From the NCBI RefSeq assembly GCF_902652985.1, contig NC_047028.1, forward strand, positions 15,624,001-15,688,000: a stretch of DNA of 64,000 bases, read 5' to 3'. The first letter of the stretch is position 1, and every line of letters begins with the position of its first letter. Origin of the DNA: Pecten maximus (lineage: Eukaryota). A program made the position numbers and the translations under genes. Positions 171 to 63,500 of this stretch are shown here, in pieces. The notes beneath the pieces are model-generated. The model was not told the origin of the DNA. It was given only the letters and a program-made list of their open reading frames with translations, and made no database searches.

Positions 171-322
171 TTAAAAAATCCAAGAATCAATGGAATTAAT
201 ATGTAGACACTTGGAGATGTACAAATGCCGGGAAATATAGGAGGCTCCGATGTTTAAATATCGTGAACGAAGCAAGATGGCGATGTATGGTGTAGTTCTA
301 TCTCCCACAGTTTCAGGAAAAC
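171..322 (-). CDS. Candidate exon (acceptor at 323); coding part of putative last exon of spliced 114-aa ORF, or a 5'UTR exon carrying a uORF; exon probably continues left out of the window
   Basis: Strong minus-strand acceptor tcttgtctctttctgtcattgcag|GTTTT. Phase-1 entry reads (G)FPETVGDRTTPYIAILLRSRYLNIGASYISRHLYISKCLHINSIDSWIF* (TAA 173-171). No donor or AATAAA seen between 170 and 1. Confidence 0.4.
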
Positions 323-1304
323 CTGCAATGACAGAAAGAGACAAGATTTTGAGAAAACATGCAATAATAATTAAACATTTAAATTTTTTTTTCAAACTGT
401 AATACAAATAGATACCAAATAGATTGTAATGTAACTTAAGACATTGTATTAAGAAATCTTATTTCTTTGTTAAGTAATCTATTTCACTGCAAGGATTATA
501 TATCTTAATAGATACAAGAAATAAATGGTTCGAGGATATCTTACAAAATAATTGAGCTTAGTTTTAAGAGAAACAGATATTGTCATTCAAACTGTCCATC
601 ATTCTAATAACAAGATTGGTGTTGGAATTAAATATTTCCAAATTATAAATCACAAAAATTACCTGTAAATTTCCCACATGTTAACAGGGAAAACCAAAAA
701 GGGAACTTTTCTTTCAAACATGAAAGTGTAATTATTGAACATCGCAAACCAGAAATATGAGTTTTTAACCAAACAAAGGCTCTCTTTACATTTGATAATT
801 ACTTCTCTGATACAAGAGTTCCAACTCAACATCTTGTTTGGTGTACAGCAGTTAAATATCTTATTATTTCAAAATTGTTCGTACTTTAGCATCAAAAAGC
901 ACTTGTGATTATATCAGAGCTAATTTTTGTTTGAATTAAATTTAAATAGAATAAAGACCAAATCAGCTATATGAATACCATACATTTTTTTTGTTTTTAT
1001 TATCCATATATTGAATATAGAAATGATCTAAACATCCATACACTCCATATCTTTTTATCAACATTAATCTATGGTAAATCTTAACAGAAAACATCTATCT
1101 TATTTTTCCCATGTTTGTAAACTTTACTTGGATACAGACCGAGAAAAATGGTGGCTTCTCATTGTTTATCAATATCTTACAAAAAAATCAAATCCAAATA
1201 TATATATATATATATATCAATTCACGTCTATTTCTTGTCTTTGACTTTCACAACAAGTTCCATGTTTTTTTTTTTTTCTCTATACAAACTTGATATGTTT
1301 CTCT

Positions 1305-3120
1305 AAGCATTTACAGTTCTCGTAAACTGTTTGTCACTCTCAGCATTTACAGTTCTCGTAAACTGTTTGTCAATGTCCCTAACACTTTTAGGCATTCCTA
1401 TCAGCTGATGAAACCTCTCTCCAAAACAGTTGTAAGAACTCTCATCCATGGTAAAAGAAAGTCTAACATCTCTTTCCGACACACAAAAGATTGTTTTATT
1501 AGTGGGATGGCGTTGTGAATACAACATTTAATGTAATAAAGCATGTTTGGAGTGAAGTTTCTCCCAGACGATCTGCCAGAGGAACAGCTTCCTAGAACAA
1601 CTCGGCTCTCAATCCAATCAAGATTTTAGTGGAGTGTGTGTCGTACCCAGTGGGGAGAAAAGGCAAAATCATTTACAAAAACATGAGCACCTTTCCTGGG
1701 ACTCCCTGTAACACCGTGCCTAGAGGGTTGAGTTGATCCCCACATCTGATAAGATTAGGATTCCTCGGGTTAATTTCTCCCCATAGTGTGAACAGGCAAT
1801 CTTATTTTCTAAGTACAAACTGACATAACACAGTCCCGACACTCGGAGCAGTAATTCTTCCTCAATTATTGACTAAACTTTCCCCTATACCGATACTGTC
1901 TCCTGTTTTTGTTGAAATTCCTAGAACCTATATATGTATAGGGATATGTAGATCGATCTCCCCATATCATTATTAATAAAAAGAAATTCCGAAAAATTGG
2001 AGGGATGCAATATTATGTAATTTCTTTCAATAATTGTAGATGATGGTGATAAACAAACTATTTATATACAACATACTCAAATCCTCACCTTACATCGTGC
2101 AGAAAAGCTTGTTCACAAAATACATAGAAATCCAGAGTGAAAATTGATACTAAAAATTTAACAAAAATTCACCTCCAGCACATTTGAGGAGCAGCCTCTG
2201 GAGAGATTGGTGTGTGATCCTAGCACTACCATATATCCTGTATTACCATAGGACATACAATCCTTCCACTAATGCCTACGCTCAACACTTCACAATTAAA
2301 CTTACTTCATGGCAGCGCAAGCATTGCATGTGTTGGCTGGGCAGGAGCATATGCATAATGGCCACAGGAGAAAGGTACCGTCACCACCAATAGTAGAAAG
2401 GTTTTTTTTTCTTGCATACTTATATTGCTCTACAGCCTTCCAGGATGGAAATGAGATGGGGGGAGGGATGGGGGGAGGGATGGGGGCAGGCAAAGGAATT
2501 TCTGATACTTGGCCTCCTACTGGCATAGTTTCGGCAATAAGCAGCCTGTTTTTGTCATTTCTACTCCCCTCACTAGCAAGCATTTATCAGATAAGAAGTG
2601 AAACCGACCCCCAGCCTTCCTTTTCATCTGTCAAGTTCCTGCAGTAAAACAGTGGAAATATAAGCAGTGCTTGATTGAGTAAGACAGTGCTAGAGACACA
2701 GGCCTTTCTTAGCTTACACTCTATGCCACAAACATTCATATCCACATACCCTTCACCCCCATAATTTTAATGAGATAAGCAAATGTTTGCAAGAAGCATA
2801 TAGGTAGTAGGGAGTTGGGAGGGGACAACAGGGAGGGGGAGGGGGGGGGGGGGGGGGAGTATGTAGCTGCGAGGGTGCCCCACCCACCTACTTTCCCCAG
2901 GGTGAAGGTTAGTAGAAAGAGGGCTGAGGAGGCGAAAGTAGGAAGTATTTTTTTTTTGACAAAGTCAGGATGAGCAAGTCGAAGTCACTGTCTGTATCCA
3001 AGTCAGGTTGAGAAAATCCGTAGTCACTTTCTGTACCTAAGTCAGGATGAGGGAATCAAAGTCACTTTCTGTACCTCAGTCAGGGTGAAGAAATCATCAT
3101 CACTCCCTGAACCCAGACTG
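1305..3120 (-). pseudogene. Possible decayed coding/TE relic (Pro-rich and Cys-rich ORF, 38-39 bp acidic repeat with frameshifts)
   Basis: Looks GC-richer than its flanks. ORF 2302-2583 has a PIPPPIPPP tract and CICSCPANTCNAC and ends in donor ATGAA|gtaagt. Repeat units at about 2960-3115 read GTESDYGFSQPDL-like but vary 38/39 bp. Downstream frames carry several stops. Confidence 0.2.
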
Positions 3121-3403
3121 TGTAGACCTATAAGTGCTATAAGTTCAGTCACCAACTATAGACAGGTTATACACCTGTGTTACACAACCCAGTAGTATAT
3201 AACAATGAATGTCAGTATTACCATGCTCATTATAATGAATGTCAATGTATTTAAATTACTGTTTCAAAGATTATTTCAAATTATATTTATTTTGATGCCT
3301 CCACTGGAGATTGAACGAGAGCCCTTACACTCCTCCACAGCTGAGTCCGGTACGAGTCAATATCACTACTGGGGTGACATTCCCAGGCTCATTATAATGT
3401 CAA

Positions 3404-3595
3404 TACAGTCAAACCTGCCTTAGTGACCACCTGCCTTAGTGACCACCTGCCTTAAGTGATTCCCTCTTATATGTGACACTGTTTTCCCCTCCCAATGTTA
3501 TTAATACTATTAATACTATACTAGTTACCAGAACCTGAGTTAAGAGACCATCTGTCATATGTGACCTTTTTGTTGCCTCCCTTAGATATATGTAT
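3404..3595 (+). mobile_element. Left end of a Tc1/mariner-pogo(Tigger)-like MITE
   Basis: TA followed by CAGTCAAACCTGCCTTAGTGACCACCTG with 17-bp subterminal repeats. 29/30 nt are the reverse complement of the 38-bp satellite unit at 15.2-15.8 kb. Confidence 0.6.
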
Positions 3596-13790: not shown

Positions 13791-15135
13791 TTCTATCATA
13801 TCTCTAACTTGCTAAGAATCTCAGTTCTCAAAACATCTGTTTCTACGTCATGAAACACCCTTTAGTATTTTATTTCTCCGAATGTTTTAAAATCTTTCTT
13901 AATTTAAACAATTGTGCCATCTTTCATATAAGATTCCATACAGTTTTTGAATTTATCAATAATCTACCTATGATATAAGATTCCTTACCTTATAAGCCTG
14001 TGAGGTGTCAGTCCACAGACTGAACTGCTTGGCTGATATGTGTGCTGTTTGGCAGACCACGACAGTCAAACCATCATAAAAAAATCATTATCAATAATGT
14101 GTTGCTCGTTTCTTTAAAGCTTATATAGGAAGATATTTTCATAGTATATTCGGTGGGTTTTCCTGCAATGATATCACTGCTGTACAGTGTATATATATAA
14201 ATATATTGATAAGCATGCTTGCCTGGCCGGATTAATTTTCTGTCATTGATTTTTGGTAGCATAGATAGAAACACCATAAAATGACACTACGCTCTAGGAA
14301 AAACTAATTAGCTGTGGTTCTAGTATCAGTCGACTTGATAGTGAGTGTTGTCATGTCGCCATTGTATGGTACACGGACAAAGCCCCCCTAACCTTGCCAT
14401 CGTCACTTACTCCTGTAACACCTGCACTAACGAACACTGATAGGCAAGATGAACAGGTAAAAATAATCAAATCTGTGTGCTCACCTTTACATTTTGCGTA
14501 GAGTGTTGATAAAGCCTGTAGGACACTAGTCTCCCCGAATAACAGTGTGTCATTATTAACAAGCCTCAATGAATAAAAACTGTTCAAAATCTCTTTAGGT
14601 TTCAGTGTGTCCAGCACCTATATATAACACGACTGCCACCACGAGGGTCAGACTGTATACAGAGACACAGGGAAACACATGTAGTCTGGTCTGCTCCTCA
14701 CCGACACACTGAGCCCACGGCCTGCTATACACCGCCACAGCCACGACTTACTCAACCATGCGGTGGTGGTGGTAGCTGTGTCGTTTGTATTCTCAACAAA
14801 AAAGTCCCAAGATTCTAATTTCAATATGGCTTCCCCCACTGTTAGTGTGTGTGTGCGGTCACACATGTGTGATACTGTCTGTGTGTCTGTCAAACCTGGC
14901 CCCAGCTCACCCCGAGAGACTCCTAGGGCTACCATACAGTTATCTGTACAACTTGTAATCACCAACTTTCAATTTACATACACTGCCAGTATAACATATG
15001 GATTACACCACTACTGGGAAAGGGACAGGTATATTTGGATTGATATCAAATAATATTTGGTATTTAATATTTCTATCACCTCGACATGTATTCACCCCTG
15101 GCTATAATCACTGTCTAAAGGAAATGGTCATATTT

Positions 15136-20494: not shown

Positions 20495-22163
20495 AGCAGA
20501 TATACAGGTACCTTGGAAAAGGTGTCAGTATCTACAGGTACCATGGAAAGGTGTCAGAATATACAGGTACCATGGAAAGGTGTCAGAATATACAGGTACC
20601 TTGGGAGAGGTGTCAGAATCTACAGGTACCAAGGAAAAGGTGTCAGAATCTACAGGTACCAAGGAAAGGTGTCAGAATCTACAGGTACCATGGAAAGGTG
20701 TCAGAATATACAGGTACCAAGGAAAAGGTGTCAGAATCTACAGGTACCTTGGAAAAGGTGTCAGAATCTACAGGTACCATGGAAAGGTGTCAGAATCTAC
20801 AGGTACCTTGGAAAAGGTGTCAGAATATACAGGTACCAAGGAAAAGGTGTCAGAATCTACAGGTACCAAGGAAAAGGTGTCAGAATCTACAGGTACCTAT
20901 GGAAAAGGTGTCAGAATCTACAGGTACCATGGAAAGGTGTCAGAATCTACAGGTACCATGGAAAGGTGTCAGAATATACAGGTACCATGGAAAGGTGTCA
21001 GAATATACAGGTACCAAGGAAAAGGTGTCAGAATATACAAGTACCTTGGGAGAGGTGTCAGAATCTACAGGTACCAAGGAAAAGGTGTCAGAATATACAG
21101 GTACCAAGGAAAAGGTGTCAGAATATACAGGTACCAAGGAAAAGGTGTCAGAATATACAGGTACCAAGGAAAAGGTGTCAGAATCTACAGGTACCAAGGA
21201 AAAGGGTTCAGAATCTACAGGTACTATGGAAAGGTGTCAGAATCTACAGGTACCATGGAAAGGTGTCAGAATATACAGGTACCAAGGAAAAGGTGTCAGA
21301 ATATACAGGTACCAAGGAAAAGGTGTCAGAATCTACAGGTACCATGGAAAGGTGTCAGAATCTACAGGTACCATGGAAAGGTGTCAGAATATACAGGTAC
21401 CATGGAAAGGTGTCAGAATCTACAGGTACCAAGGAAAAGGTGTCAGAATCTCCAAGGAAAAGGTGTCAGAATCTACAGGTACCAATGAAAAGGTGTCAGA
21501 ATCTACAGGTACCAAGGAAAAGGTGTCAGAATCTACAGGTACCAAGGAAAAGGGTTCAGAATCTACAGGTACCAAGGAAAATGTGTCAGAATCTACAGGT
21601 ACCAAGGAAAAGGTGTCAGAATCTACAGGTACCAAGGAAAAGGGTTCAGAATCTACAGGTACCAAGGAAAATGTGTCAGAATCTACAGGTACCAATGAAA
21701 AGGTGTCAGAATCTACAAGTACCTTGGGAGAGGTGTCAGAATCTATAGGTATCTTGGGAGAGGTATCAGAATCTAGAAGTACCTTGGGAGAGGTGTCAGA
21801 ATCTATAGGTACCTTGGGAGAGGTGTCAGAATCTACAGGTACCAATGAAAAGGTGTCAGAATCTACAAGTACCTTGGGAGAGGTGTCAGAATCTATAGGT
21901 ATCTTGGGAGAGGTATCAGAATCTAGAAGTACCTTGGGAGAGGTGTCAGAATCTATAGGTACCTTGGGAGAGGTGTCAGAATCTACAGGTACCTTGGGAG
22001 AGGTGTCAGAATCTATAGGTACCTTGGGAGAGGTGTCAGAATCTACAGGTACCTTGGGAGAGGTGTCAGAATCTATAGGTACCTTGGGAGAGGTGTCAGA
22101 ATCTACAGGTACCAATGAAAAGGTGTCAGAATCTACAAGTACCTTGGGAGAGGTGTCAGAATC
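20495..22163. repeat. Minisatellite, 29-31 bp unit, about 55 copies, with 90- and 150-bp higher-order blocks
   Basis: Unit aggtgtcagaatctacaggtaccaaggaaa; strict 30-bp period after about 21452; 150-bp block repeated at 21691 and 21841. Confidence 0.97.
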
Positions 22164-36773: not shown

Positions 36774-36831
36774 CTTTCTGTTGGTTATACTGGCATTTCA
36801 CTGGGATTCCAGTCTTAACTGATATGGTCCC
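36774..36831 (-). CDS. Candidate 58-nt internal exon (GTISVKTGIPVKCQYNQQK)
   Basis: Acceptor gttttcttgtgttacag|GGGACC and donor CAGAAAG|gtgagt. Only the phase-0 frame is open, matching the phase-0 exit of exon 48359-48480. Confidence 0.5.
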
Positions 36832-43666: not shown

Positions 43667-45488
43667 CGTTACTCATCCTGGTGTGTCCGTGTGATAATCA
43701 TGAACACACGTTACTCATCCTGGTGGGTCCGTGTGATAATCATGAACACACGTTACTCATCCTGGTGTGTCCGTGTGATAATCATCCTGGTGTGTCCGTG
43801 TGATAATCATCCTGGTGTGTCCGTGTGATAATCATCCTGGTGTGTCCGTGTGATAATCATCCTGGTGTGTCCGTGTGATAATCATCCTGGTGTGTCCGTG
43901 TGATAATCATCCTGGTGTGTCCGTGTGATAATCATGAATACACGTTACTCATTCTAGTGTGTCCGTGTGATAATCATGAACACACGTTACTCATCCTGGT
44001 GTATCCATGTGATACTCATGAATACACGTTACTCATTCTAGTGTGTCAGTGTGATAATCATGAACACACGTTACTCATCCTGGTGTGTCCGTGTGATACT
44101 CATCCTGGTGTGTCCGTGTGATAATCATGAATACACGTTACTCATCCTGGTGTGTCCGTGTGATACTCATCTTGGTGTGTCCGTGTGATAATCATCCTGG
44201 TGTGTCCGTGTGATAATCATCCTGGTGTGTCCGTGTGATAATCATCCTGGTGTGTCCGTGTGATAATCATCCTGGTGTGTCCGTGTGATAATCATCCTGG
44301 TGTGTCCGTGTGATACTCATCCTGGTGTGTCCGTGTGATACTCATCCTGGTGTGTCCGTGTGATAATCATCCTGGTGTGTCCGTGTGATACTCATCCTGG
44401 TGTGTCCGTGTGATAATCATGAATACACGTTACTCATTCTAGTGTGTCCGTGTGATAATCATGAACCCACGTTACTCATCCTGGTGTGTCCGTGTGATAC
44501 TCATCCTGGTGTGTCCGTGTGATAATCATGAACCCACGTTACTCATCCTGGTGTGTCCGTGTGATACTCATCCTGGTGTGTCCGTGTGATAATCATGAAC
44601 ACACGTTACTCATCCTGGTGTGTCCGTGTGATACTCATCCTGGTGTGTCCGTGTGATAATCATGAACACACGTTAATCATCCTGGTGTGTCCGTGTGATA
44701 ATCATCCTGGTGTGTCCGTGTGATACTCATCCTGGTGTGTCCGTGTGATAATCATCCTGGTGCGTCCGTGTGATAATCATCCTGGTGTGTCCGTGCGTCC
44801 GTGTGATAATCATCCTGGTGCGTCCGTGTGATAATCACCCTGGTGTGTCCGTGTGATAATCATCCTGGTGTGTCCGTGTGATAATCATCCTGGTGTGTTC
44901 CTTTTGTGATATCCATCTGGTGTGACCGTGTGAACTCATCCTGGTGGTCCGGGTGTGATAATCATCCTGGTGCGTCAGTGTGCCATGGATAATCATCCGG
45001 TGGTATCATGAACACACGTTACTCATCCTGGTGTGTCCGTGTGATAATCATCCTGGTGTGTCCGTGTGATAATCATCCTGGTGTGTCCGTGTGATAATCA
45101 TGAACACACGTTACTCATCCTGGTGTGTCCGTGTGATACTCATCCTGGTGTGTCTGTGTGATAATCATGAACACACGTTACTCATCCTGGTGTGTCCGTG
45201 TGATACTCATCCTGGTGTGTCCGTGTGATAATCATGAACACACGTTACTCATCCTGGTGTGTCCGTGTGATAATCACCCTGGTGTGTCCGTGTGATAATC
45301 ACCCTGGTGTGTCCGTGTGATAATCACCCTGGTGTGTCCGTGTGATAATCACCCTGGTGTGTCCGTGTGATAATCATCCTGGTGTGTCCGTGTGATAATC
45401 ATCCTGGTGTGTCCGTGTGATAATCATCCTGGTGTGTCCGTGTGATAATCATGAACACACGTTACTCATCCTGGTGTGTCCGTGTGAT
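43667..45488. repeat. Minisatellite of interspersed 25-bp and 41-bp units
   Basis: atcatcctggtgtgtccgtgtgata with or without an atcatgaacacacgtt module. Confidence 0.97.
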
Positions 45489-47963
45489 TAAACATTAAAC
45501 CAGGACTGAGAGGAAACTGAGGGATTGATAAGAAAAACAAGCAAAATGGACCTTACCTGAAATTTAAGGTTTGGTAGCATTTATAGTAGTGGACCCTTTT
45601 ATCGAATTTACTGAATTTATATGATGTATTAGACCTAATAATTGCACTGTACTTACACAAACACAAAAGGGGTGCGCTTTATGAAACCAAAATATGTACT
45701 AGGAAAGATTTTCTGTATGAAATTTGAGGGGAAAAAACCCTTCTTTTTTCATTTAAATTTTATGCAGTGAAAACAATCTCTAGTCTTTGGTAAAAGACTA
45801 AAGGTTGTATTATATTGACAGATAACTTAGGTAATTAATAAACTTTTTATCTGTTTCAATTAGGAAACCCATCTTCTTTTCTTCTTTTTAGCGACAGATT
45901 CGTTTATTAGGTAGTATATGTAGATGTAATGCATTGAGGTTTTATGTATGTAAATTAAATGTATTACATTGAGGTTTTATGTATGTAAATTAAATGTATT
46001 ACATTGAGATTTTATAGAGTGAGCTCCCCTTAATTCAGGATTCTTGGAGTACATTTCTGGAGCTCTACAACTTCTAATAAATATATATAGTTACCAAATT
46101 AATTATATTATTTTCAACGAATCCATTATCGAACAAATCACAGTCTAGCCAACCTGTCACTTTCTCCCACCATCTATACAGTCTTGGAGACTTTAAACCC
46201 TAATTAATGACACCATTATGAAGACTACTTTGTAAAGACATTAATCCAGGCCTACAGACAAGCCCATCTGATTAGGTTTTATTGAATGCGCATAAATCAC
46301 GGCTGCTTACCAAGACACAGGCTCACAGCCAGAGGAAACATTCAGTTACCACGGTAATCAACATTGGCGACCTCAACATCATTAGAGAGTTCCAAACAAG
46401 GGCAGAGAACTGATCCATCACAAAATGCCAATATCACAGATTGACCTACTGGAGATGTTTTGTGTGTGAAGAACAAAAAAGACAATGTGTGCCTACGATA
46501 TATCATCCTGGCTTTAATACATGCCAGCAGAGGAAGGGAATTCTTCTATAGCTCCACAATGTATCATTCTGCATTGTCAATTGCATTCCTGTGCTGAGAT
46601 GGTTAAGGCTGGATATTTCAGACAATTTCTAGTGTATAAATTCCAAAGTTAAACTAATGATCTGAGATATTGATCCTCATTTCCAGCAATCTCTTGGCAG
46701 AGATCCTTTTAGCTGTGACAATTGTGATCAAGTTCCCTTAGGTTTTCAACTTGCCCTCAACATAACTCTACTAGTGTCAAATGTTGCATAGTTTTCAGCG
46801 GAAACAGAAAGCAAGTGTCGGATCAACCCCGGTAACAGAACACACAAAAAACTCATTATTCTGCAATAAGCTGATTGAAAAATATCAATTTACTTGCGAT
46901 TGTTATCCCAGTCCATAATGCTAATGTGCCTTTCTCCTTTGACTGTACATAAAGCAAATCACCCGAGTCGATCTGGGGATAGCCGATAATCCAAGTGATT
47001 TATGGGAAATTACCGTAAATGGAAATTTCACGACAACATTGTAGAATGTCCGCAGCAACAATCAAACCACTAACATGTAGCGCGATGATTCACCTTTCTC
47101 CAATTTTATTTTTATCTTTAAATTTTTATTTTTTTTCCCTTTTAGATTCATCCGGAATGTTTCCAAACATTCTGCATGATTCAGACAGGTTTTTTTTGTT
47201 TCACCAGTCTCTTGCTATCACCAATTCATTAATTTTGATAAAATTCATTTAAGCGTTAACGATCAATGCAACCTATGTTTTGATGAATATACCCAGACCA
47301 TGTTTGAGGTCGTGAATCATTCCAGCCAAGCTAATCACCTATGTATTGGAAAAATAAAAAACAGGTTTGTGATCAATGGATCAGCCAACAATGAACAATA
47401 CACCCTATTCGATAAAAGGTCTTGCTATGTCAATTGACAGATTGATGTAAGTTGGATCGGAATCCATGTTTTTATACTTCACTTGGCATGAACTGATGGC
47501 TGCTAGACATGGACCCATAATTCTCACCGCGCAATTTCCTGAAAAAAATATTGCACAGTCACAGTCATAGATATGCATCCAGGGATCGACCAAAGGTTGG
47601 AAATGGACATCAAGTGTTTCCAAATGTTCTTAGAGCGAGGGATGATGAGGGCAGCAAAGGGTGACAACTCTGTAGACACATTTGTTACGCGCATGTCAAA
47701 ATCTTGTTTGAAACCTAGCTAATTTATTACAGGGTTGGCACTCCTTGGTTTTATGAGTGATTACGTGTGCAAGCATGTACATTAAATTCTGTTGTTTTTT
47801 TATACAACAAATTAGTGAAGAAATTATGGTACTTCACATGCTTTTATGGATCTTGGAGGATATTAATGGCTTTAAGCATCCTTCTGAAAAAGACAAATGT
47901 CTTGGTCAGAGAGATGTTTTCAATCAACCATACATCCTCAGGACTTGATTAATTTGAATCAAT

Positions 47964-47977
47964 GTTACCATGGTAAC
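47964..47977. promoter_or_regulatory. RFX X-box motif (perfect palindrome)
   Basis: GTTACCATGGTAAC within the 16-bp palindrome TGTTACCATGGTAACA. Confidence 0.5.
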
Positions 47978-48358
47978 ACATCTTATGCAATGGACAAGTT
48001 TGTAGAATCAGGAGGAAGGCTATATTAGACACCATCCCAGATTTTATATCTATCAATTATCTTAAGCCCACACAACCTGGCATTCCAACATCTTCATGAA
48101 AAGTAGAGAAATTCTAATCAAACTAATCGTTATTATCTGTGTCATTGGAAGGTCTACATCACAAATCAGAATCATAGATTTAGTAACTATGAAATATAAA
48201 CATGTATTCCATTTTGAGAGACTTGCTGTCCCCTCAATGCTCCTCCTTACTGTTGGCCCAGAGGAACAGAAATTGTTGAGTTGTTTAGTCTCCAACAGCG
48301 TTACATCAGAAAGTGACATGGTAATGAATGACAGGTTAATTCAACCCTCTTACCTTAC

Positions 48359-48480
48359 CTTGTCTGAATCATCGTTAACAAGGACAACAGCACAGAAACC
48401 TTTTATAACACTAGAGTTATTATTGTGGGAAGACTGAAAGTTCCTGAGAAAATCCTGAAAATGTCGGTCATTGGTTACAG
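48359..48480 (-). CDS. Candidate 122-nt internal exon (VTNDRHFQDFLRNFQSSHNNNSSVIKGFCAVVLVNDDSDK)
   Basis: Acceptor ttttttattttcttacctag|CTGTAA and donor GACAAG|gtaagg (second donor 5 nt further). One of three frames is fully open (phase 1 in, phase 0 out). Confidence 0.5.
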
Positions 48481-50998
48481 CTAGGTAAGAAAATAAAAAA
48501 TTTAACTTGATTTGATATCAATTATATTTCAGATCATCACTATACTGTCTCCTTAAATCAACTTTTTAAAAATTTTACTGACAAAATATGATGAATCTTT
48601 CACCAATCCAGGTTATTATAGTTTTAAGGTGACAGTCCATTTCAACAGAATTAGAAATTCAGCAATATATAGAAAAATTATCAGATTAAAAAGATGAAGT
48701 TTGAAATGCTTTTCCTGACCATATTTATCTGCCAAATAAGTTACCGCCCACTAAATAAGCCTCTTTCTACAGTTTTGCAGGACCATCAATTTTAAAATAG
48801 TTAACTAAAAGTGCTTAACAATTAAGACCTCCCCAAACTTTAAAACTTGATTGTGAAGATTGACTATGTTGTACATATGGTCAGGGACTGATGAAGTACT
48901 GGGCTAAAGTGTTCATTAGGTCAAATACATGTACCAGAAATGTAGTTTTAAAGCTTTCTTGTTATAATGATATAAAATATTCACATGATATTAAAATCAG
49001 TGTGAAGAGTTGAGTTGATAGCACAGGGAGATGGGCTTTAATCCTATATATTTTTTTATTAGTAGACTTAGGGAAATAAAAGTGTCGTTAGATAGGTAAA
49101 TCCACGCTGTGAGGGAGGAAGATACTCTGGTACATTGTGAGGTAACACAACCTGGGAATGACTTGAGGAGTCCTGGGGCGTTTTAATGAGGTTGCCAGCA
49201 TGCCTCTCATACAGAGTCTGGCCCAGCTCCACCATCAGTCAAACTGTTATGTAGCAATGACATGAGAAGTGAAGCTTTCAGTTCAAACAATTTACTACCA
49301 GAGAGGTCCACAAAGGGGGACTACTCTAACATCAGATTTTTACAATTCAAAGATACATGTTTTGCTTTAAATCTCAAGAACTAAGTATTATGGATAATTA
49401 ATTTCATCAATGTAAGATAGAGAGATACAGAAAGTGTGACAGTAAGTTTTGCAGAAAGGCAAACCTTTGTCAGCTCAAAATACATTTTCTGTGCCACTGC
49501 TTATCACTGCCCCCTTGAATAGTGGGTTAGATAAAGACTCACAGCTTCATGATTACTGAAATGGCTAGCTAGAAAGTTATGGGGCCCATTACTCAACCTA
49601 ATTCAATATGCCATGGGCTTTACATGAAAAATTCCCCGACAAGACTTCCTCCACTCAAGAAGTCTGTGTAAAGAAGTCGGACTATTCTGCATATAGGTAT
49701 ACAAGTCTGCCATGCATGACACCTCTAAGATGGTTTTTTGGCTGCAAATGTCATCATTTCAGATGGAAAAACTTCACCATGTAAATCTTACAGACAAGTA
49801 TATGTTCTCCATATGCGAATAAAACTCGAAAACAAATCGTTTATAGCACTGGAAAAAAATACATGTCTTCTTGCTAAATACTGTATGCATATTCGCTCTG
49901 GCAAAATGCCTCTACAATAGCAAAGCCTATTTAAAGCTTTGTTGAATATCTGAGATACAATTAAATATCTCTCTCTTAAAATGGGTTTATTTGCAAAAGA
50001 TTGAGAAAGTTGAACAAAGTTAATTCCAAAATGGAAGAAACACCTTTGAGTGGATAAATTCTTGGTAATAAGGTCAAGTGCCTCCGGACCAGCAGCTGGG
50101 CCAATAATAAAATCAGTTTTGGATACAGTACTTTAACGGCCTGTAAGCTGTTAGTGGTAATGTGGAGTATCTATTAACAATTCGATCATGTTAATTTGGT
50201 TTTTATGTCGAGTTGAGACTAAATACCAATCAGTCGCTGTACAAGCCACTAGGTCAGACAGTTTAACTATTCTTAGCACTTAATGTAACTAGGCTGTCGC
50301 AATCACAACCTTACATACCGCGGTATCACTTTATGTTGAAAATTGCCAAATCTTAGTGTTAAAGAAACATTTTTATTTTGAGCACAGATAGTGACAATAA
50401 TTAGGTCACATAATGATGTCCACAACATCAGTAGCGTACTTATTATGTTCCATATCTCATTTCAAAATAGCATAATATATCGGTTTGGGAAAGAAGAGAA
50501 CCTTTTCTAAATTTCATCTACCTTGAAATTGAGGTTAAATTTCCATATTTATCCTCAAAAAAGTCCCCCTCCCTTTTGTAAAGTTGTGGAGGCCTCATTT
50601 GTTGACCACTTTTTGCTTATATGTTGGCAGGGCCTTATTTGCAGATAAATACAATATTATAATTAATTACAGTTTTAAAAAGGCTATCTAAACCTTGTTA
50701 TGAACCAAGTAGCCAAGTGACAAGACACCCAACACCAATTGATTTGAGCCTTATTCAATCTGTACCAGATTTCACCATCATATATATCTGCTTCTTGATT
50801 CTTAACTAGCATTGCTTTCCATCCAAGAACATCTTCTATAGAACCATAATGCTATATATCATTCTTTAAATTCTTCTTGATTTTCAAGCAAATTTAACAA
50901 ATTGTGATTCATAAGAGACACTATCTAACAACAGAGGTTCACATACTGAAGGTTAAAATATCAAAATAAAAAAAAAAAAATATAGAAATATGTGGTTA

Positions 50999-51705
50999 AG
51001 GGCAGAGGCCAGAATCAGAATTTGAATATACACGACCATTTCTGTAGTCCCACCAAATTAAAAATTGAACTATATGTAACAGGGCAGAGACCAGAATCAG
51101 AATTTGGAGCTAAACAACCATTTCTCTAGTCCCACCAAAAATTAGAAATTGGACTTTGTGTTGGAGGGCAGAGACAAGAATCGGTTTGGTTTGGTTTATT
51201 TTGTTTAACAGCCCTTTAACAGCCATGATCATTTAAGGATGTGCCAGGTTTTGGAGGTGGAGGAAAGCCGGAGTACCCGGAGAAAAGCCACCGGCCTACG
51301 GTCAGTACCTGGCAACTGCCCCACGTAGGTTTCAAACTCGCAATCCAGAGGTGGAGAGCTAGTGATAAAGTGTCGGGACACCTTACCCACTGGACCACCG
51401 CGGCCCCCACAAGAATTGGAATCAGACCTACATGACCAGTCTGCAGTCCCACCAAGTTAGAAATTGGACTTTGAGGTGGAGGGCAGAGATAAGAATCAGA
51501 ATTTGGACCTATATGGCCCCCTTTGTAGTCCCACCAAGTTAAAAATTGGACTTTGAGGTGGAGGGCAGAGAATCAGAATTTGGACCTATATGGCCCCTTT
51601 TGTAGTCCCACCAAGTTAGAAATTGGACTTTGAGGTGGAGGGCAGAGATAAGAATCAGAATTTGGACCTATATGGCCCCCTTTGTAGTCCCACCAAGTTA
51701 GAAAT
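50999..51705. repeat. About 80-bp tandem repeat interrupted by a SINE
   Basis: agggcagagataagaatcagaatttggacctatatggcccc..tgtagtcccaccaagttagaaattggactttgaggtgg. Confidence 0.9.
51185..51408 (-). mobile_element. tRNA-derived V-domain SINE, full length (copy 1)
   Basis: Head GGGGCCGCGGTGGTCCAGTGG, B-box GAGTTTGAAACC, V-like domain TTCTCCGGGTACTCCGGCTTTCCTCC, (AAACC)n tail. TSD acaagaat(c/t)gg at 51174-51184 and 51409-51419. Near-identical to 57877-58103. Confidence 0.9.
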
Positions 51706-53034
51706 AGGAGACTCTACAGTATTGGGGACATAGTCAGATATCTGAGGCTGACCCAGCAGGACTCCCAGCCATTGAGCCATAGTGTCAGAAGACTACTGCT
51801 GGGGGTCATCCCAGAATCCATAAAGTCTCCATCTTGTGTGTAATTTAATGGTTTAGACTTCATGGTCATAAGTCACACAAACAAAGATCCCAGGCCGATC
51901 TATATGTTTACCAGGCCACCTTTATCTAAACTTGTTTATATATAAATACACACGTTTTAGATCAATCCAAAAAGTGAAAAGCATGAGATAAGAAGTTTTT
52001 GATAAAGAAAAAAAAGAAATGACTAAAATATATGCCAACACTTTGATAACATTGTGTATTCAGTTAGGGAACCAAGGTGGTGTTTTTTTTCTTATTAAAT
52101 GGTCAAAATTATCATATCACATTCTATAACAGATAAAATAGTCTGGAAAATTGGCATATTTATAAAATAAAATTGTATTAGTTCTATCTAATTCTGACAT
52201 TTTCCCTTTCCTGTTGAATAAATATACAAAACGCTTAATTCGTAAAGTTCCAGAAAGATAAAAACAAGAATTTGTAATACCATTATACATATAAGAAAGA
52301 AAATCATCACATACTTCTTCCAACAAGATTGTCCTGTCAAAAACATAAAGCAAGCTATTTAAATGCAATAAAAGTTTCAAAAAAATAAATTAAAAAGCTG
52401 TTTACTGATCAGGATTTAAAACATCGTCATGACCGAGATCATGTGATGAAGGTTGCTAAGTTAATGAATAGAATATGAGCATGTTGTGGTTTGCGCTGTA
52501 GTTGTGAGTCATCGCCATGCCTTTTTATCATTATCTTCCAATATACACGTCTCAGTAATGCTATAAAAAATTCTTGCTTTTTTTTAAGCAGAAGAAATCT
52601 GCATTAAAATAAATGGTGCATAATTGCATTACCTTCGTGTAGACAAACATATTTTAAATATGACCATACATAACTGAATCATCTCCCGATAATATTTTGG
52701 AAAAAACTCAACAAACCTGATTGTCCAGTTTGAGAGCCTTTGGTAACAGGCTATACAAATCTTACTCATAATGATATGAAAATATTGTTAACAATCGAAA
52801 TTGAAAACTGGACCATAAAGTTGCCAACATGTCAACCATTACTACTTCAGTATTAAATACTCATGAGAGTGCCAGCTTTTTTTTAAGATGATGTCAAATA
52901 CTGAAAGACTAAATATAATTAAATTACCATAACGTAAAATTCAACATAATCATTTCTGTGCTCCACAATTACAAGTTGAGTCCACTCAATGCTGACAATA
53001 TGGATAGCCCCTGTATGTTCTATTGTTTTCACAA

Positions 53035-53746
53035 TACTGTATTCAACCTAATAAGTGTACCGTGTGCTTACAAAACACAAAAGGTCTGTGTGTTTAATAA
53101 AACCATGCACAGGGAAATCTGGTTGGAAAAAAACAGCTTTTTTGTTTTCATTTACTTATATATTTATATATATGCTGTGAAAATAATCTTGTCTTTGGTT
53201 AAAATACTGAAGATAATATTGGCAGATCTGTGAGGTAAGGAACTTTTTATAAACAAAAATACACTCTTTTCCTGAAAAACGGAGGAGCATGCTGATGGGG
53301 GCAGGTGCTCTTATTAGGTTGAATATGGAGTGGCAGGTGCTCTTATTAGGTTGAATATGGAGGGGCAGGTGCTCTTATTGGATTGAATATGGAGGGGCAG
53401 GTGCTCTTATTATGTCAAATATGGAGGGGCAGGTGCTCTTATTATGTCAAATATGGAGGGGCAGGTGCTCTTATTGGATCGAATATGGAGGGGCAGGTGC
53501 TGTTATTAGGTTGAATATGGAGGGGCAGATGCTCTTATTGGGTCGAATATGGAGGGGCAGGTGCTCTTATTGGATCGAATATGGAGGGGCAGATGCTCTT
53601 ATTGGGTTGAATATTCAGGGGCAGGTGCTCTTATTGGGTCGAATATGGAGGGGCAGATGCTCTTATTGGGTTGAATATGGAGGGGCAGGTGCTCTTATTG
53701 GGTCGAAAATGGAGGGGCAGATGCTCTTATTGGGTCGAATATGGCA
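53035..53746. mobile_element. Tigger/pogo-like MITE whose right TIR is tandemly amplified (32-bp unit, about 14 copies, 53298-53744)
   Basis: Left end TA-CTGTATTCAACCTAATAAG. Repeat unit ggggcaggtgctcttattaggttgaatatgga contains the exact 16-nt reverse complement (53040-53055 vs 53310-53325). Confidence 0.8.
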
Positions 53747-55125: not shown

Positions 55126-56700
55126 GGAGATGGTGTCGGTGGAGAGTATATCAACATATGGGGGGGGGGGGGGGGGGGGGGAGGGAGATGGTGTCGGTGG
55201 AGAGTATATCAACATATTGTGTCTCCAAGTAGAGGGGGACAAGAGTGGTGGGGGGGGGGGGGGGGAGGGAGGGAGATGGTGTCAGTGGAGAGTATATCAA
55301 CATATTGTGTCTCCAAGTAGAGGGGACAAGAGTGGTGGGGGGGGGGGGGGGGGGGGGGGGAGGGAGATGGTGTCGGTGGAGAGTATATCAACATATTGTG
55401 TCTCCAAGTAGAGGGGACAAGAGTGGTGGGGGGGGGGGGGGGAGGGAGATGGTGTCGGTGGAGAGTATATCAACATATTGTGTCTCCAAGTAGAGGGGAC
55501 AAGAGTGGTGGGGGGGGGGGGGGGGGGGGGAGGGAGATGGTGTCGGTGGAGAGTATATCAACATATTGTGTCTCCAAGTAGGGGGGACAAGAGTGGTGGG
55601 GGGGGGGGGGGAGGGGGGGAGGGAGATGGTGTCGGTGGAGGAGGTATATCAACATATTGTGTCTCCAAAGTAGAGGGGACAAGGAGTGGTGGGTGGGGGG
55701 ATGGGGGAGGGATGATTGGTGTCGGTGGGAGAGTATATCAACATATTGTGTCCTCCAAGTAGAGGGGACAAGAGTGGGGGGGGGGGGGGGGGGGGAGGGA
55801 GAGGGTGTCGGGTGGAGAGTATATCAACATATTGTGTTTCTCCAAGTAGAGGGGACAAGAGTGGTTGGGGGGTGGTGGGGTGGGGGGGGGGGGGGGAGGA
55901 GATGGTGTCGGTGGAGAGTATATCAAACATATTGTGTCTCCAAGTAGAGGGGACAAGAGTGGTGGGGGGGGGATGGGGGAGGGAGATGGTGTCGGTGGAG
56001 AGTATATCAACATATTGTGTCTCCAAGTAGAGGGGACAAGAGTGGTGGTGGGGGGGGGGGGGGGAGGGAGATGGTGTCGGTGGAGAGTATATCAACATAT
56101 TGTGTCTCCAAGTAGAGGGGACAAGAGTGGTGGTGGGGGGGGGGGGGGGGAGATGGTGTCGGTGGAGAGTATATCAACATATTGTGTCTCCACGTAGAGG
56201 GGACAAGAGTGGTGGTGGTGGTGGTGGTGGTGGGGGGGGGGGGGAGGGGAGGGAGATGGTGTCGGTGGAGAGTATATCAACATATTGTGTCTCCAAGTAG
56301 AGGGGACAAGAGTGTGGTGGGGGGGGGGGGGGGGAGGGAGATGGTGTCGGTGGAGAGTATATCAACATATTGTGTCTCCACGTAGAGGGGACAAGAGTGG
56401 TGGTGGTGGTGGTGGTGGTGGGGGGGGGGGGGGAGGGAGATGGTGTCGGTGGAGAGTATATCAACATATTGTGTCTCCAAGTAGAGGGGACAAGAGTGGT
56501 GGTGGGGGGGGGGGGGGAGGGAGATGGTGTCGGTGGAGAGTATATCAACATATTGTGTCTCCAAGTAGAGGGGACAAGAGTGGTGGTGGGGGGGGGGGGG
56601 GAGGGAGATGGTGTCGGTGGAGAGTATATCAACATATTGTGTCTCCAAGTAGAGGGGACAAGAGTGGTGGTGGTGGTGGTGGGTGGTGGGGGGGTGGGGG
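55126..56700. repeat. Poly-G-containing minisatellite (about 85-100 bp unit, about 17 copies)
   Basis: Constant ggagatggtgtcggtggagagtatatcaacatattgtgtctccaagtagaggggacaagagt plus variable (GGT)n/(G)n tract. Confidence 0.97.
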
Positions 56701-57876: not shown

Positions 57877-58103
57877 TTGGTTTGCTTGGTTTGTTTTTGT
57901 TTAACGTCCTATTAACAGCCAGGGTCATTTAAGGACGTGCCAGGTTTTGGAGGTGGAGGAAAGCCGGAGTACCCGGAGAAAAACCACCGGCCTACAGTCA
58001 GTACCTGGCAACTGCCCCACGTAGGTTTCGAACTCGCAACCCAGAGGTGGAGGGATAGTGGTAAAGTGTCGGGACACCTTAACCACTCGGCCACCGCGGC
58101 CCC
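57877..58103 (-). mobile_element. tRNA-derived V-domain SINE, full length (copy 2, intact A/B boxes)
   Basis: A box TGGCCGAGTGG, B box GAGTTCGAAACC, V-like domain, A/C-rich tail; perfect TSD ctatcattgat at 57866-57876 and 58106-58116. Confidence 0.92.
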
Positions 58104-58727
58104 TTCTATCATTGATCAAAACATTATCATTTAACCATTATGTAACCCTTGACCTCTAGGGTTCCTAGTACCATAAAAAGTTACTTGACCTTATTATGCT
58201 GTTTCAGTGACCTTGACCTAAAGGAGATGATCACAAATATGCAGCTGTTTTCAGACATGACTGCCCTATGAAATTTACTGTGTCACTGTTTGACAAATTA
58301 TTTCTCTAAGTAATCTTGGCAGTGATCAGGGCACTGTGAATACCATTCTTTCCAAGATTTACTCTTGATGACTCTGAATTATAAATAGTAGTGATGACCT
58401 TGACCTTGGAACCCGGAACTCATCAGAGGGATGTCCTGTGTTGGACTTATGTCTTCTCTTACCATAAACATATGTGGCATAAAACATTAAAGAAATAAAA
58501 TCAAAATTATGAAAAGAAAAAAAAATTGAGAGAAATTTATTTCAACTTTATTCAAGTTAAATTTAGTTGTAACAAGTTTTGATCAATCAATACCATTGAA
58601 AAAATATGAGACAGCTGAAATTTAAAAATATTTAAAAAATAAAAAAATAAAATTCAATATTAAAGTACAAATCACTAAAGCCATTTTGTTTGAGTAAACT
58701 GTAAAACACTTGCCTTTCTCTACTCAC

Positions 58728-58747
58728 TTTGTCTGTACCTTGGGGAC
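58728..58747 (-). other. Candidate 20-nt microexon
   Basis: ctatttccaattacag|GTCCCCAAGGTACAGACAAA|gtgagt. Confidence 0.25.
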
Positions 58748-59626
58748 CTGTAATTGGAAATAGCCTTCAATGAATTTCTAAATAAACTGTTCTGCCACTG
58801 ATGAATGAAAAAAAAACGTTATTGTGTTCACAACACAAAGGAGTAATTAAATGTGGAAACTGTGATCGGTGATTTACCTAAAAACGATAATGGCAAATAA
58901 AATAAATTTAAAAAGAAGTAGATCTAGACTACAGACGCATGATTTTCTCACACACACCATTAGAACGGAGTGCACAAAGTGTTTGTTGTGTTACGTCTAT
59001 GATTGAACGGCTTTCCCAATGTGTTCCGGTAACTTGATATAAAAACACCCGTTTATCTTACATTGGCAGGTAAGTTCTCGCCTGTCACAGTATGTATATT
59101 AATGCTGTCATCTAGCCGACATAATGGTAGGACAGAACCGGTAGCTACTCACAGCAAGAGCTTACAGCAATGATGTGGGAGTTGTACTGTTGGATTGAAT
59201 TACTATCATTTAAGTTGATCACAGACAACCTTTGGTCCGACCAGTCATTTTTCTGATAAACAGTTAATAATCTCTTTCTATTTTACAGTGAAAAACCTGA
59301 AACATTTCAGACAGAAACAATCTACAATGGTGGTTAGGTATCACTGTCCTAATGTAGATCCTGTTTAGTTTTGTCAGCACAATTATGCAAAGGACATATT
59401 TAACAAATTTGCTTTATGAAGATTTGCTTGCATATTGTTGGTTTTGGGTGAAAATTTCTAATTATCTTTTACAGCACCATTGTCATTTGTAATAAAAGTA
59501 GCTAGAAAGAGAAATAAACTATATCAGCTTTCTGCGATTGAGTTTGAAAAACTTGAGAATTTGTCTGATGTAACATTACTGGCTAAAGTAAGCATACCCT
59601 AAAGTCACAATAATCAGAGGAAGTTC

Positions 59627-61590
59627 CTTTACAGGGGTGGTCTCTCAACAGAGGAGGTCCTTTTACAGGGGTTGTCTCTCAACAGAGGTGTTCACGTAGT
59701 GCCTAAACAGGGGTGGTCTCTCAACAGAGGTGCTCACATGGTGCCTAAACAGGGGTGGTCTCTCAACAGAGGTGTTCACGTGGTGCCTAAACAGGGGTTG
59801 TCTCTCAACAGAGGTGTTCACATAACTGGGGTCGTGCCTAAACAGGGGTGGTCTCTCAACAGAGGTGCTCACATAACTGGGGTGGTGCCTAAACAGGGGT
59901 GGTCTCTCAACAGAGGTGCTCACATGGTGCCTAAACAGGGGTGGTCTCTCAACAGAGGTGTTCACGTGGTGCCTAAACAGGGGTGGTCTCTTAACAGAGG
60001 TGTTCACATAACTGGGGTGGTGCCTAAACAGGGGTTGTCTCTCAACAGAGGAGGTCCCTTTACAGGGGTTGTCTCTCAACAGAGGTGTTCAAGTGGTGCC
60101 TAAACAGGGGTGGTCTCTTAACAGAGGTGTTCACATAACTGGGGTCGTGCCTAAACAGGGGTGGTCTCTCAACAGAGGAGGTCCCTTTACAGGGGTTGTC
60201 TCTCAACAGAGGTGTTCAAGTGGTGCCTAAACAGGGGTGGTCTCTTAACAGAGGTGTTCACATAACTGGGGTCGTGCCTAAACAGGGGTGGTCTCTTAAC
60301 AGAGGTGTTCACATAACTGGGGTGGTGCTAAACAGAGGTGGTCTCTCAACAGAGGTGCTCACATGACCGGGGACGTGCCTAAACAGGGGTGGTCTCTTAA
60401 TAAAGGTGGTACTTTTACAGAGGTTGTCTCTCAACAGAGGTGTTCACATAACTGGGGTGGTGCCTAAACAGGGGTGGTCTCTTAACAAAGGTGGTACATT
60501 TACAGGGGTTGTCTCTCAACAGAGGTGTTCACATAACTGGGGTCATGCCTAAACAGGGGTGGTCTCTTAGCAAAGGTGGTACTTTTACAGAGGTTGTCTG
60601 TTGACAGTGACATAATGGGGATGGTCTCTTTACAGTGTTATGGCTGATCTGTTAACACAGGTGGTCTATTAACAGAGGTTGTCTGTTGACAGTGGTGGTT
60701 CCATAAAGAGGATGGTCTCTTTACAGTGTTATGGCTGATCTGTTAACACAGGTGGTCTATTAACAGAGGTTGTCTGTTGACAGTGGTGGTTCCATAAAGA
60801 GGATGGTCTCTTTACAGTGTTATGGCTGATCTGTTAACACAGGTGGTCTATTAACAGAGGTTGTCTGTTGACAGTGACATAATGGGGATGGTCTCTTTAC
60901 AGTGTTATGGCTGATCTGTTAACACAGGTGGTCTATTAACAGAGGTTGTCTGTTGACAGTGACATAATGGGGATGGTCTCTTTACAGTGTTATGGCTGGT
61001 CTGTTAACACAGGTGGTCTATTAACAGAGGTTGTCTGTTGACAGTGGTGGTTCCATAAAGAGGATGGTCTCTTTACAGTGTTATGGCTGATCTGTTAATA
61101 CAGGTGACCTCATAACATACGTGGTCTATTAACAGAGGTAGTCTCTTAACAGGGGTCCCTAACAGGTTTGGTCTCTTGACATAGGTGGTCTCTTAACAGG
61201 GGAGGTCTCTTAACAGGGGTGGTCTCTTAACAGGGATGATCTCTTAACAGGGATGGTCTCTTAACAGGGGGAGGTCTCTTAACAGGGGGAGGTCTCTTAA
61301 CAGGGGGAGGTCTGTTAACAGGGGGAGGTCTCTTAACAGGGGAGGTCTCTTAACAGGGATGGTCTCTTAACAGGGGTAGTCTTTTAAAAGAGTTGACCTC
61401 TTAACACAGGTTTCCTTTAACATGGTCTCTTAACAGAGGTTGCCTTCTAACAGAGGTGGTCTTTTAACAAAGGTGATCTCTTAATATGGGTTGGCTCTTA
61501 ACAGGGGCAGTCTCCTAACAGAGTTACTCATACAACAGGTGGCCTCTTAACTGGATAGTCTCTTAACACAGGTCTCAATGCAGGTGGTCT
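59627..61590. repeat. Compound minisatellite built on an 18-19 bp ACAGG(G)GTGGTCTCTTA core
   Basis: 47/56-bp units (59.6-60.6 kb), 85/91-bp units (60.6-61.1 kb), bare 18-19 bp units (61.1-61.6 kb). Confidence 0.95.
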
Positions 61591-63487
61591 TTCAATATAT
61601 TTATTCAGTTAACATGAATATAAGAATAAAATGGGTATTTTAAAAGTAGTCTCTTCGTTCATTAGCAGACTGAAGATATATATATTGCTTGCTTTGGGAA
61701 GTATTTATTATTACAACCATCATTAGAAACCCTCAACTACAGGGAAACAATACAGTATATAGAAAACTTACATTGTTTAATAAAGTGATTTATTTCCTCA
61801 GGCACACAATTCTAATTTATTCAAATAAAACACTGATATCCTGTTTGTAGAATGCATACACACATCTAAAAATAGCACGTTGTTCATAAAACCATAAACT
61901 TCACTTGTGTTAAGTGACCAGGAAGTTTCCAACAACCATTGATACAGTTTAACACAAATTCATGATGACTATCAAACGTCTTCTTCCCTGTCCAAACTTA
62001 CAATTTTGTTAAAATAAAAACTGCTTTTTCTATTTCCATACAATAAAGATAAAATGATGGTATAAAAAGTTTCTTTGTCTTGTATTTTGTTTTCATGTTT
62101 GAGGGATTTAGATTTATAACACAGCGTTCCCTGTTGTGGGAGCTATAGGGGTTAACATAGCTCCCCTAATCCCCACCTCTATTAACTGTAGGATACATAC
62201 AGGTGTAGCACAGCAACAGAATGAAATTACACCACTTTGAAAAGATGATATTGGTAAACCAGACAAAAGATGCATGTTACAGGGTTTGATGACAGACCCC
62301 ACACACAATCCACACATCAGCGCTGTCACTTACCGACCTAACCCCTGTCGTCAGGGTGACTCCTGATATCACGTTAGCGTGGGCACCTGGTATAATTTAT
62401 CTGTGCAGCAGTGACACGCTTTATACCTACACCTGATGCAACACAATGCTGTGACCAGGTGCACCGTATCAATAAACAAAGATACATTTCAATTCCCACT
62501 GGAGTTATCTCCCTTGATTGAGTAATTCCAAAGAACGTATATCTCTGCTCTACTATATCAATAATGTTTAAATCACCCACATTTTTATCACTAAGTTGTA
62601 CCCAATATGGTAAAGTTTGTAACAGGAAAGGAACAAGATAATAATCAGACTAAGACTTGAATTCTAGGCCTTCAAGCTGCATTAGGCAGATGGGTAGCCA
62701 TTAGTCTAAATGCTTAAGTGCGACCTCTGACTCTTTAATTATGACAAATTACTACCACACCTTGATGTTCAGAAAAAATAATTTCTTTGTTTTAAAGTGT
62801 GAGATTAGTTTTTTATGAATTGCTGTCCTGTACTTAAATCTCCGTAAGAAATCAGGAAGATGAGTATATTAAATCCATTACAAATTGCCTTTTATCTGTA
62901 TTTTTTTGCTCACAACTTTCATTATTTCTCCTTGGTGAGGCTTTGGCAGTGAATTTTACTAGCTGATCTCATCTGTTAGTTATTTTAGAAATCTGAAGAA
63001 AAACTCTTTAGTGAAATGGATACAAATGTCTTACTGCTGGTAAATTTAATTTCAATAAATTAACGGTCATCAAATACAGCGCGAAAATAACAAGAATTAC
63101 ATGTAATCTAACAAATATACAGTATGTTATATCTTCTATGTATTTTGTTTTACATTAGAAGGTAAAAACAGACTAATCATAGTTGTCATAGATTCTAAAC
63201 CACATGGATGTTGTATGATACAAGACAGAAAATACACCCATAAACTATCCTATTGTTATGTGCTGTGACCTCTGACCTTAGGGTAAAAGGGCACTAGTCA
63301 CCCCCGACCTCTGACAATGGTCACTTTATCTACCATGTGTTTTGTAGATCTCTGTTTAACAAGAATTTGTTATAGATTTAAACAGAAGACAATGTAAAAG
63401 CTTTGTTATGGCTGTCACTATAAGGAATGGCTGTGGCACTCCAGGAGTAGCATGCAATGACCTACACATGTTGCTATTTCCTCTCAC

Positions 63488-63500
63488 CTGCTGTTTCCAT
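63488..63500 (-). CDS. Candidate start-codon exon end (META|, phase 1)
   Basis: accATGG Kozak context followed by GCAG|gtgaga donor; phase matches exon 48359-48480. The ATG is also the centre of an X-box, so it may be coincidental. Confidence 0.25.

What the first reader, a model, noticed from the sequence alone, without database searches (positions are those of the whole stretch)
171..63500. Hidden spliced 114-aa ORF spread over 63 kb on the minus strand
Seen: four segments with good splice signals, 63500-63488 (13 nt), 48480-48359 (122 nt), 36831-36774 (58 nt) and 322-171 (152 nt), join in compatible phases (1,0,1) into 345 nt with no internal stop: METAAVTNDRHFQDFLRNFQSSHNNNSSVIKGFCAVVLVNDDSDKGTISVKTGIPVKCQYNQQKGFPETVGDRTTPYIAILLRSRYLNIGASYISRHLYISKCLHINSIDSWIF*. 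Each internal exon has only one open frame, and those frames are the ones that join. A six-frame track cannot show this. Inference: either an orphan small protein gene with very long introns, or a long uORF in the multi-exon 5' leader of a gene whose CDS lies left of the window. I recognise no domain, the first exon is the weakest link, and I chose the exons by eye.
Basis: partly seen in the sequence, partly recalled or inferred. Interest (0 to 1): 0.7.

Follow-up and report, generated by a model that had tools for sequence, protein, structure and literature searches.

The report
Muscleblind gene's spliced 5' leader
The proposed hidden 114-amino-acid gene lies in the long, multi-exon untranslated front end of the muscleblind splicing-regulator gene of a bivalve-like animal; only its last splice junction was seen in RNA, and the reading frame is likely incidental rather than a new protein.

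Summary
The four segments, their GT-AG signals and the 345-nt open frame are as stated, but they are not a separate gene. Segment 322-171 is only the first 152 nt of a 693-nt exon that runs off the window's left end and carries the AUG and first zinc fingers of muscleblind (MBNL; E 3.7e-26). In 4 of 4 runs laid, contigs cover this exon and splice on to the next muscleblind exon 50 kb away. No call supports the 48480-48359 or 63500-63488 exons, and the only ATG lies in the latter. The frame stops 349 nt before the muscleblind AUG, finds no credible protein relative, has non-coding composition, and is broken in the one bivalve-like orthologue whose leader aligns. The RNA-supported part (69 codons) arises by chance in 25% of simulations. 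Verdict: alternative 5' leader exons of muscleblind, as in flies and mammals. A rare isoform with a long repressive uORF is not excluded (about 0.2).

The parts
1..322 (-). 5' part of the 693-nt first coding exon of muscleblind (501 nt of leader, then 64 codons with zinc finger 1 and part of zinc finger 2); the exon continues off the window to G000:C14:15623630, AUG at C14:15623821
   Evidence: Covered by contigs in 4 of 4 runs and spliced to the next muscleblind exon; MBNL match E 3.7e-26; PF22628 E 1.3e-11
171..322 (-).
   Evidence: Sequence; no Pfam family; no credible protein relative
36774..36831 (-). Leader exon; its donor at 36774 is used with the acceptor at 322. The 5' border 36831 is predicted only
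   Evidence: Loose end of the X9 contig matches 36776 onward; single copy in G000; splice scores 5.4 / 8.0
14485..14517 (-).
   Evidence: Loose end of the X5 contig, 31 letters, one mismatch in the 20 searched
48359..48480 (-).
   Evidence: Splice scores 5.3 / 7.4, one of 5 such pairs on the minus strand against 1 on the plus strand in 254 kb; single copy; no RNA support in any call
63488..63524 (-). Candidate upstream exon end with a strong donor and two in-frame ATGs (63524, 63500), the second in a strong Kozak context (context rule recalled); untested

Best explanation
These segments lie in the 5' leader of the single muscleblind (mbl/MBNL) gene, where at least two alternative upstream exons (ending at 36774 and 14485) splice onto the 693-nt exon that carries the start codon, and the 114-aa frame is likely an incidental open stretch of that leader rather than a selected protein. 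Shown: the gene's identity, the exon's extent, the two junctions and the onward splice. Inferred: the upstream exons come from alternative promoters spread over tens of kb, as in fly, worm and mammalian muscleblind genes, and they set tissue-specific output and the fate of the AUG exon (inclusion, skipping or circularisation); ribosomes scan past a few short uORFs to the muscleblind AUG.
For: Muscleblind CDS starts in the same exon, 349 nt after the frame's stop; second zinc-finger pair 72 kb further left, no other copy among 4 candidates scored in G000. Contigs of 4 of 4 runs splice the exon to the next muscleblind exon. Two different upstream joins, 1 run each. The RNA-supported part of the frame has no ATG and its 69 open codons are reached in 24.5% of 3000 simulations. 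Amino-acid make-up: 41% of 3000 non-coding windows score as protein-like or better, against 5% for the muscleblind piece. Last-exon peptide: 1 hit among 1.84 billion representatives, E 9.3e-4, a repetitive 1078-aa protein; 0 of 5 candidates among longer proteins; 122-nt exon peptide 0 of 2 candidates. In bivalve-like locus L035 the leader aligns as DNA (0 of 300 shuffles and 0 of 400 GC-matched genome windows reach the score) but the same-phase frame stops after 16 codons and the shared 8-mer lies in another frame. Stop-free runs of 109 codons or more occur in 7 of 26 spliced muscleblind leaders from other animals (several are near duplicates). Same architecture in mouse/human (PMC5389549), fly (PMC9352392) and worm (PMC10773944), passages read.
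Against: With it the frame is 109 codons, reached in only 2.6% of simulations. The ATG at 63500 has a strong context. The exon ending at 14485 is also open for 44 codons in the same frame, without ATG. The 152 nt show no variant in 4 of 4 runs, though neither does the rest of the exon. Conservation was tested against one distant bivalve-like locus and three other genomic loci only, with acceptors placed by eye; a uORF confined to close relatives would be missed.
Confidence: 0.7

Rival explanations
1. A real but scarce leader isoform puts a strong-context AUG (63500/63524, or another upstream exon's ATG such as the phase-0 candidate 45580-45557) in frame with the 69 supported codons. The long uORF would block scanning to the muscleblind AUG and, stopping upstream of many junctions, send the mRNA to nonsense-mediated decay: a 'poison leader' that tunes MBL. 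The peptide itself would not matter.
For: Strong splice scores of the untested exons; 2.6% chance for the 109-codon run; such an isoform would be scarce and easily absent from contigs (inference); the mouse Mbnl1 leader exon e5'UTR2 holds an ATG that the authors mutated to prevent a shorter protein (PMC5389549, passage).
Against: No call shows the two upstream junctions; frame broken in L035; 0 of 26 homologous spliced leaders hold an ATG-started ORF over 61 codons; exons were chosen by eye for compatibility.
Confidence: 0.22
2. The muscleblind mRNA is bicistronic in this lineage and the 114-aa product is a functional, lineage-restricted small protein.
For: The frame is open and ends in a stop; close relatives could not be searched, so lineage-restricted conservation is untested.
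Against: No domain, no credible relative, non-coding amino-acid make-up, best protein alignment to L035 reached by 32 of 500 shuffles.
Confidence: 0.05
3. An independent orphan gene with very long introns that ends shortly after 171.
For: Only the open frame and splice signals.
Against: Contigs run through the stop into the muscleblind CDS and on to its next exon: unbroken in 2 of 4 runs (X9, X14), in two pieces in the other 2.
Confidence: 0.02

Closest known systems
Mammalian MBNL1 5' region (T1-T3 promoters, leader exons e5'UTR1-3 spliced to e1; PMC5389549, passages read)
   Same: Several upstream leader exons up to about 50 kb away splice onto one large exon that holds most of the 5' UTR, the start and the first zinc fingers; an upstream ATG in a leader exon is mentioned.
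   Different: Leader part of the exon is 501 nt here against 875 nt; 2 YGCY motifs in it here against nine conserved ones; promoters, skipping and MBL binding are not shown here.
Drosophila mbl exon 2 / circMbl with proximal and distal promoters (PMC9352392, PMC5387669, passages read)
   Same: AUG exon flanked by long introns (14-36 kb or more upstream, 50 kb downstream); alternative 5' exons, including a two-exon distal leader (1', 2') like the possible multi-exon leader here; a circle of this exon would give a product of about 10 kDa (86 aa predicted).
   Different: No back-splice joint was listed in 4 of 4 runs (contigs drop rare forms); no circRNA shown.
Long uORFs and NMD-coupled autoregulation in RNA-binding-protein genes (general knowledge)
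   Same: A frame that would start in an upstream exon and stop before the main AUG.
   Different: Start exon unsupported, translation untested, not conserved in the one alignable orthologue.

Membership tests
Muscleblind/MBNL gene | Tandem CCCH zinc-finger pair 1 (ZnF1-2) like MBNL1/2 | tested here: met
   PDB MBNL2 E 3.7e-26, MBNL1 E 1.1e-25; named muscleblind proteins of oyster, mussel and clam at 71-86%; rest of ZnF2 in the next exon
Muscleblind/MBNL gene | Second zinc-finger pair (ZnF3-4) downstream in the same gene | tested here: met
   C14:15551781-15551915, minus strand, E 4.5e-8; joining to it by RNA not tested
Muscleblind/MBNL gene | [quoted passage not shown] | tested here: met
   693-nt exon with spliced ends on both sides
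Muscleblind/MBNL gene | Alternative upstream leader exons | tested here: met
   Two different donors (36774, 14485) join 322, one run each
Muscleblind/MBNL gene | Alternative promoters (transcription starts) | not testable with these tools
   Contigs cannot show starts; CpG scan gave no clear island
circMbl-type circular RNA | Back-splice joint of the AUG exon | tested here: inconclusive
   No joint listed in 4 of 4 contig sets; contigs show presence, not absence
Translated uORF | AUG, frame and stop on one mature mRNA upstream of the main AUG | tested here: inconclusive
Translated uORF | Ribosome occupancy in frame | not testable with these tools
   No Ribo-seq available
Conserved-peptide uORF / small protein gene | Frame and peptide kept in relatives | tested here: not met
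   Frame broken in L035 although the DNA aligns; no tblastn match below E 0.6 in 80 homologous loci; no credible relative. Close relatives were not available
Independent protein-coding gene | Own transcript ending after its stop codon | tested here: not met
   Contigs continue into the muscleblind CDS

The most novel reading that the evidence does not exclude
A distal muscleblind promoter makes a four-exon leader whose 63-kb-spanning, 114-122-codon uORF shuts off MBL translation and triggers decay: a poison leader, switched by promoter choice or by the 122-nt cassette, adding a uORF layer to muscleblind autoregulation that my paper searches did not turn up.
Probability: 0.2. Interest if true: 0.5.

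Novelty: new member of a known kind. Interest (0 to 1): 0.2.

Why it matters
As it stands it is ordinary: it adds a bivalve-like animal to the flies, worms and mammals in which muscleblind has several distant leader exons feeding one AUG exon, and it annotates two such exons. If the long uORF isoform were real and translated, it would be a new control layer (uORF/NMD through the leader) on a splicing regulator central to muscle and nerve differentiation and to myotonic dystrophy, testable with a simple reporter.

Tried and rejected
Reads on the 122-nt exon: window 45600-53250 was laid with X9, X14, X17, X3; the two bins holding 48359-48480 had depth 0 in 4 of 4 runs. Contigs drop rare forms, so this is no proof of absence. 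Only 5 of the 18 runs that hold the last exon were laid. Back-splice: none listed. Pfam on the two peptides and the stop-to-stop frame: 0 of 3; on 80 further frames (60 of 244 from the 100 kb to the right, 20 non-repeat ones of the window's 65): 0 of 80, so no neighbouring gene was found to own the upstream exons. Rfam 0, tRNA 0. ESM Atlas gave no answer. The joined 114-aa peptide was not searched as a whole, only its two longest pieces (49 and 40 aa), which lowers sensitivity; shorter relatives (under 87 aa) of the 49-aa piece were covered only. blastn of the leader and upstream exons against 80 homologous loci gave nothing meaningful; local alignment of 37 of the 80 upstream regions: 1 of 37 (L033) exceeded all of its 30 shuffles, by an AT-rich match downstream-type signal I did not pursue. 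Of 4 genomic homologues trimmed to the exon, only L035 aligned above all 300 shuffles. CpG peaks at 89 kb and 122 kb are repeat-like, not promoters (by eye). Exonised-repeat origin of the three upstream segments: each gave a single match in G000 (the search skips very common words). Earlier scan notes: nothing in 3 look-ups.

Full report
Observation. The four minus-strand segments have the stated lengths, AG/GT borders and phases, and join to 345 nt reading 114 residues and a stop. The window is G000:C14:15624001-15688000 in a 918-Mb genome, 37% GC, N-free, rich in tandem repeats.

What lies left of the window. The last segment is held by 18 of 24 listed runs from 6 studies. Laid on L002:3800-7200, contigs of 4 of 4 runs (X9, X5, X14, X17; one study each) cover L002:4629-5324 and little else. 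The exon is 693 nt, window 322 down to C14:15623630. Its last 192 nt read 64 codons that match MBNL2 and MBNL1 (E 3.7e-26, 1.1e-25), PF22628 and named muscleblind proteins of oyster, mussel and clam at 71-86%; 'bivalve-like' rests on these matches. In all 4 runs the 3' loose end matches the next muscleblind exon about 50 kb further left. A second zinc-finger pair lies at C14:15551781-15551915. Only X14 is on record as RNA, but joints across 14-50 kb introns show spliced RNA.

Junctions. X9's contig continues from 322 into the 3' end of the 58-nt exon: junction 36774->322 is real. X5's continues into a different exon whose donor is at 14485. X14 and X17 begin 1-2 letters beyond the acceptor, as expected where several upstream exons converge (inference). 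No call supports 63488->48480 or 48359->36831; what was laid there is given under Tried and rejected and is not proof of absence.

Are the untested exons plausible? With a position-weight model from recalled consensus frequencies, the 122-nt segment scores 5.3/7.4, close to the confirmed exon (5.4/8.0). At thresholds 5.0/6.9, set after seeing these scores, 254 kb hold 5 exon-like pairs on the minus strand and 1 on the plus; at 4/5, the 27 kb upstream of the 58-nt exon hold 4 and 4. So the 122-nt exon may be real. An ATG with an open frame and compatible phase before a donor is easy to find: upstream of the 122-nt exon 1, 2 and 3 phase-1 cases at donor scores 7, 5 and 4, and a phase-0 case at 45580-45557 that would join the 58-nt exon directly.

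Chance. The RNA-supported part has 69 stop-free codons, reached in 24.5% of 3000 Markov simulations of the same length and make-up; with the 122-nt exon, 109 codons in 2.6%. Among 80 homologous loci, 26 are spliced with at least 450 nt of leader: 7 of 26 have a stop-free run of 109 codons or more, 0 of 26 an ATG-started ORF over 61 codons (several loci are near duplicates and GC differs). The peptide's composition is matched or beaten by 41% of 3000 non-coding windows, the muscleblind piece by 5%.

Relatives of the peptide. Pfam 0 of 3. The 49-aa piece: 1 hit in 1.84 billion representatives, E 9.3e-4, to a repetitive 1078-aa protein with 11 matched stretches, judged chance; 0 of 5 candidates among proteins of 87-2000 aa. 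The 40-aa piece: 0 of 2. These are weak for short queries. Locus L035, whose N-terminus resembles the clam protein P0023, has a 360-nt leader part that aligns with ours as DNA (score 392; 0 of 300 dinucleotide shuffles, 0 of 400 GC-matched genome windows reach it), yet the same-phase frame stops after 16 codons, a shared 8-mer near the acceptor is read in another frame, and the best protein alignment is reached by 32 of 500 shuffles. Three other genomic homologues (L026, L030, L032) did not align above shuffles; their same-phase frames stop after 1, 5 and 35 codons. Acceptors were placed by eye. This looks like weakly conserved UTR, not a conserved ORF, on one informative comparison.

How it most likely works. 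Shown: one muscleblind gene, a large AUG exon, at least two alternative upstream exons, long introns on both sides. Inferred from known families: the upstream exons come from alternative promoters, and leader choice sets tissue output and the AUG exon's fate. In mouse and human, three promoters with leader exons 0.2-50 kb away splice to e1, and MBNL drives e1 skipping (PMC5389549). [quoted passage not shown] Worm mbl-1 has two promoters (PMC10773944). For each of these four papers I saw the search listing and selected passages only, no supplements. Short uORFs are likely present anyway: two ATGs in the 501-nt leader part and, if the 14485 exon extends far enough, a 45-codon one in another frame.

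Rivals. A scarce isoform with the full uORF acting as a poison leader (0.22) fits the strong splice signals and would be hard to see in contigs, but has no direct support. A functional small protein (0.05) and an independent gene (0.02) are poorly supported.

In print. Searches for muscleblind with 'upstream open reading frame' and 'untranslated region' (25 of 38 listed), with 'uORF' (20 of 43 listed), with 'bivalve' (0 papers) and with 'mollusc' (10 of 2,368 listed) showed no title or abstract start describing a long muscleblind uORF or a bivalve muscleblind leader; the library lacks most subscription papers.

Verdict. A partly correct by-eye exon prediction inside the muscleblind 5' leader; known architecture, new organism. 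Interest 0.2; the poison-leader reading has probability about 0.2 and would deserve about 0.5.

Noticed in passing
   Followed up: partly
window 322 to G000:C14:15623630 (-): The AUG exon is 693 nt, a multiple of three; a circle of it would read an 86-aa product from the muscleblind AUG, like fly circMbl. No back-splice seen in 4 contig sets.
   Followed up: partly
window 46568-47624: Single-copy stretch covered by one unspliced 1057-nt contig (depth 23.8) in X9 only, with weaker contigs to 46028; possibly another start region, terminal exon or lncRNA.
   Followed up: partly
window 28052-27758 and 18064-17799 (-); about C14:15565713-15565852 (-): Further strong acceptor-donor pairs: two in the leader region, and one of 140 nt inside the muscleblind coding region that has stops in all three frames of the stretch read, a possible poison cassette.
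   Followed up: no
window 45580-45557 (-): ATG plus strong donor (8.2) in phase 0; would start the 69-codon frame if spliced to 36831. Just outside the stretch laid.
   Followed up: no
window 51190-51408 (-): Short repeat with very deep cover from many related contigs in 4 of 4 runs; looks like a tRNA-derived SINE (label recalled, not tested; ARAGORN finds no tRNA).
   Followed up: partly
window-wide, e.g. 20503-22163, 43757-45488, 55159-56700, 59631-61573: Many minisatellite arrays (83 Tandem Repeats Finder rows) give most of the long six-frame ORFs.
   Followed up: no
window and L012-L021 (100 kb to the right): No Pfam match in 80 frames tested, so the muscleblind upstream region may be a gene-poor stretch of 160 kb or more (short exons would be missed).
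   Followed up: partly
L035:837-1196: Leader of a bivalve-like muscleblind exon shares short motifs near the acceptor with ours, one next to a YGCY site; possibly the MBL-binding region known from MBNL1 e1 (inference).
   Followed up: partly
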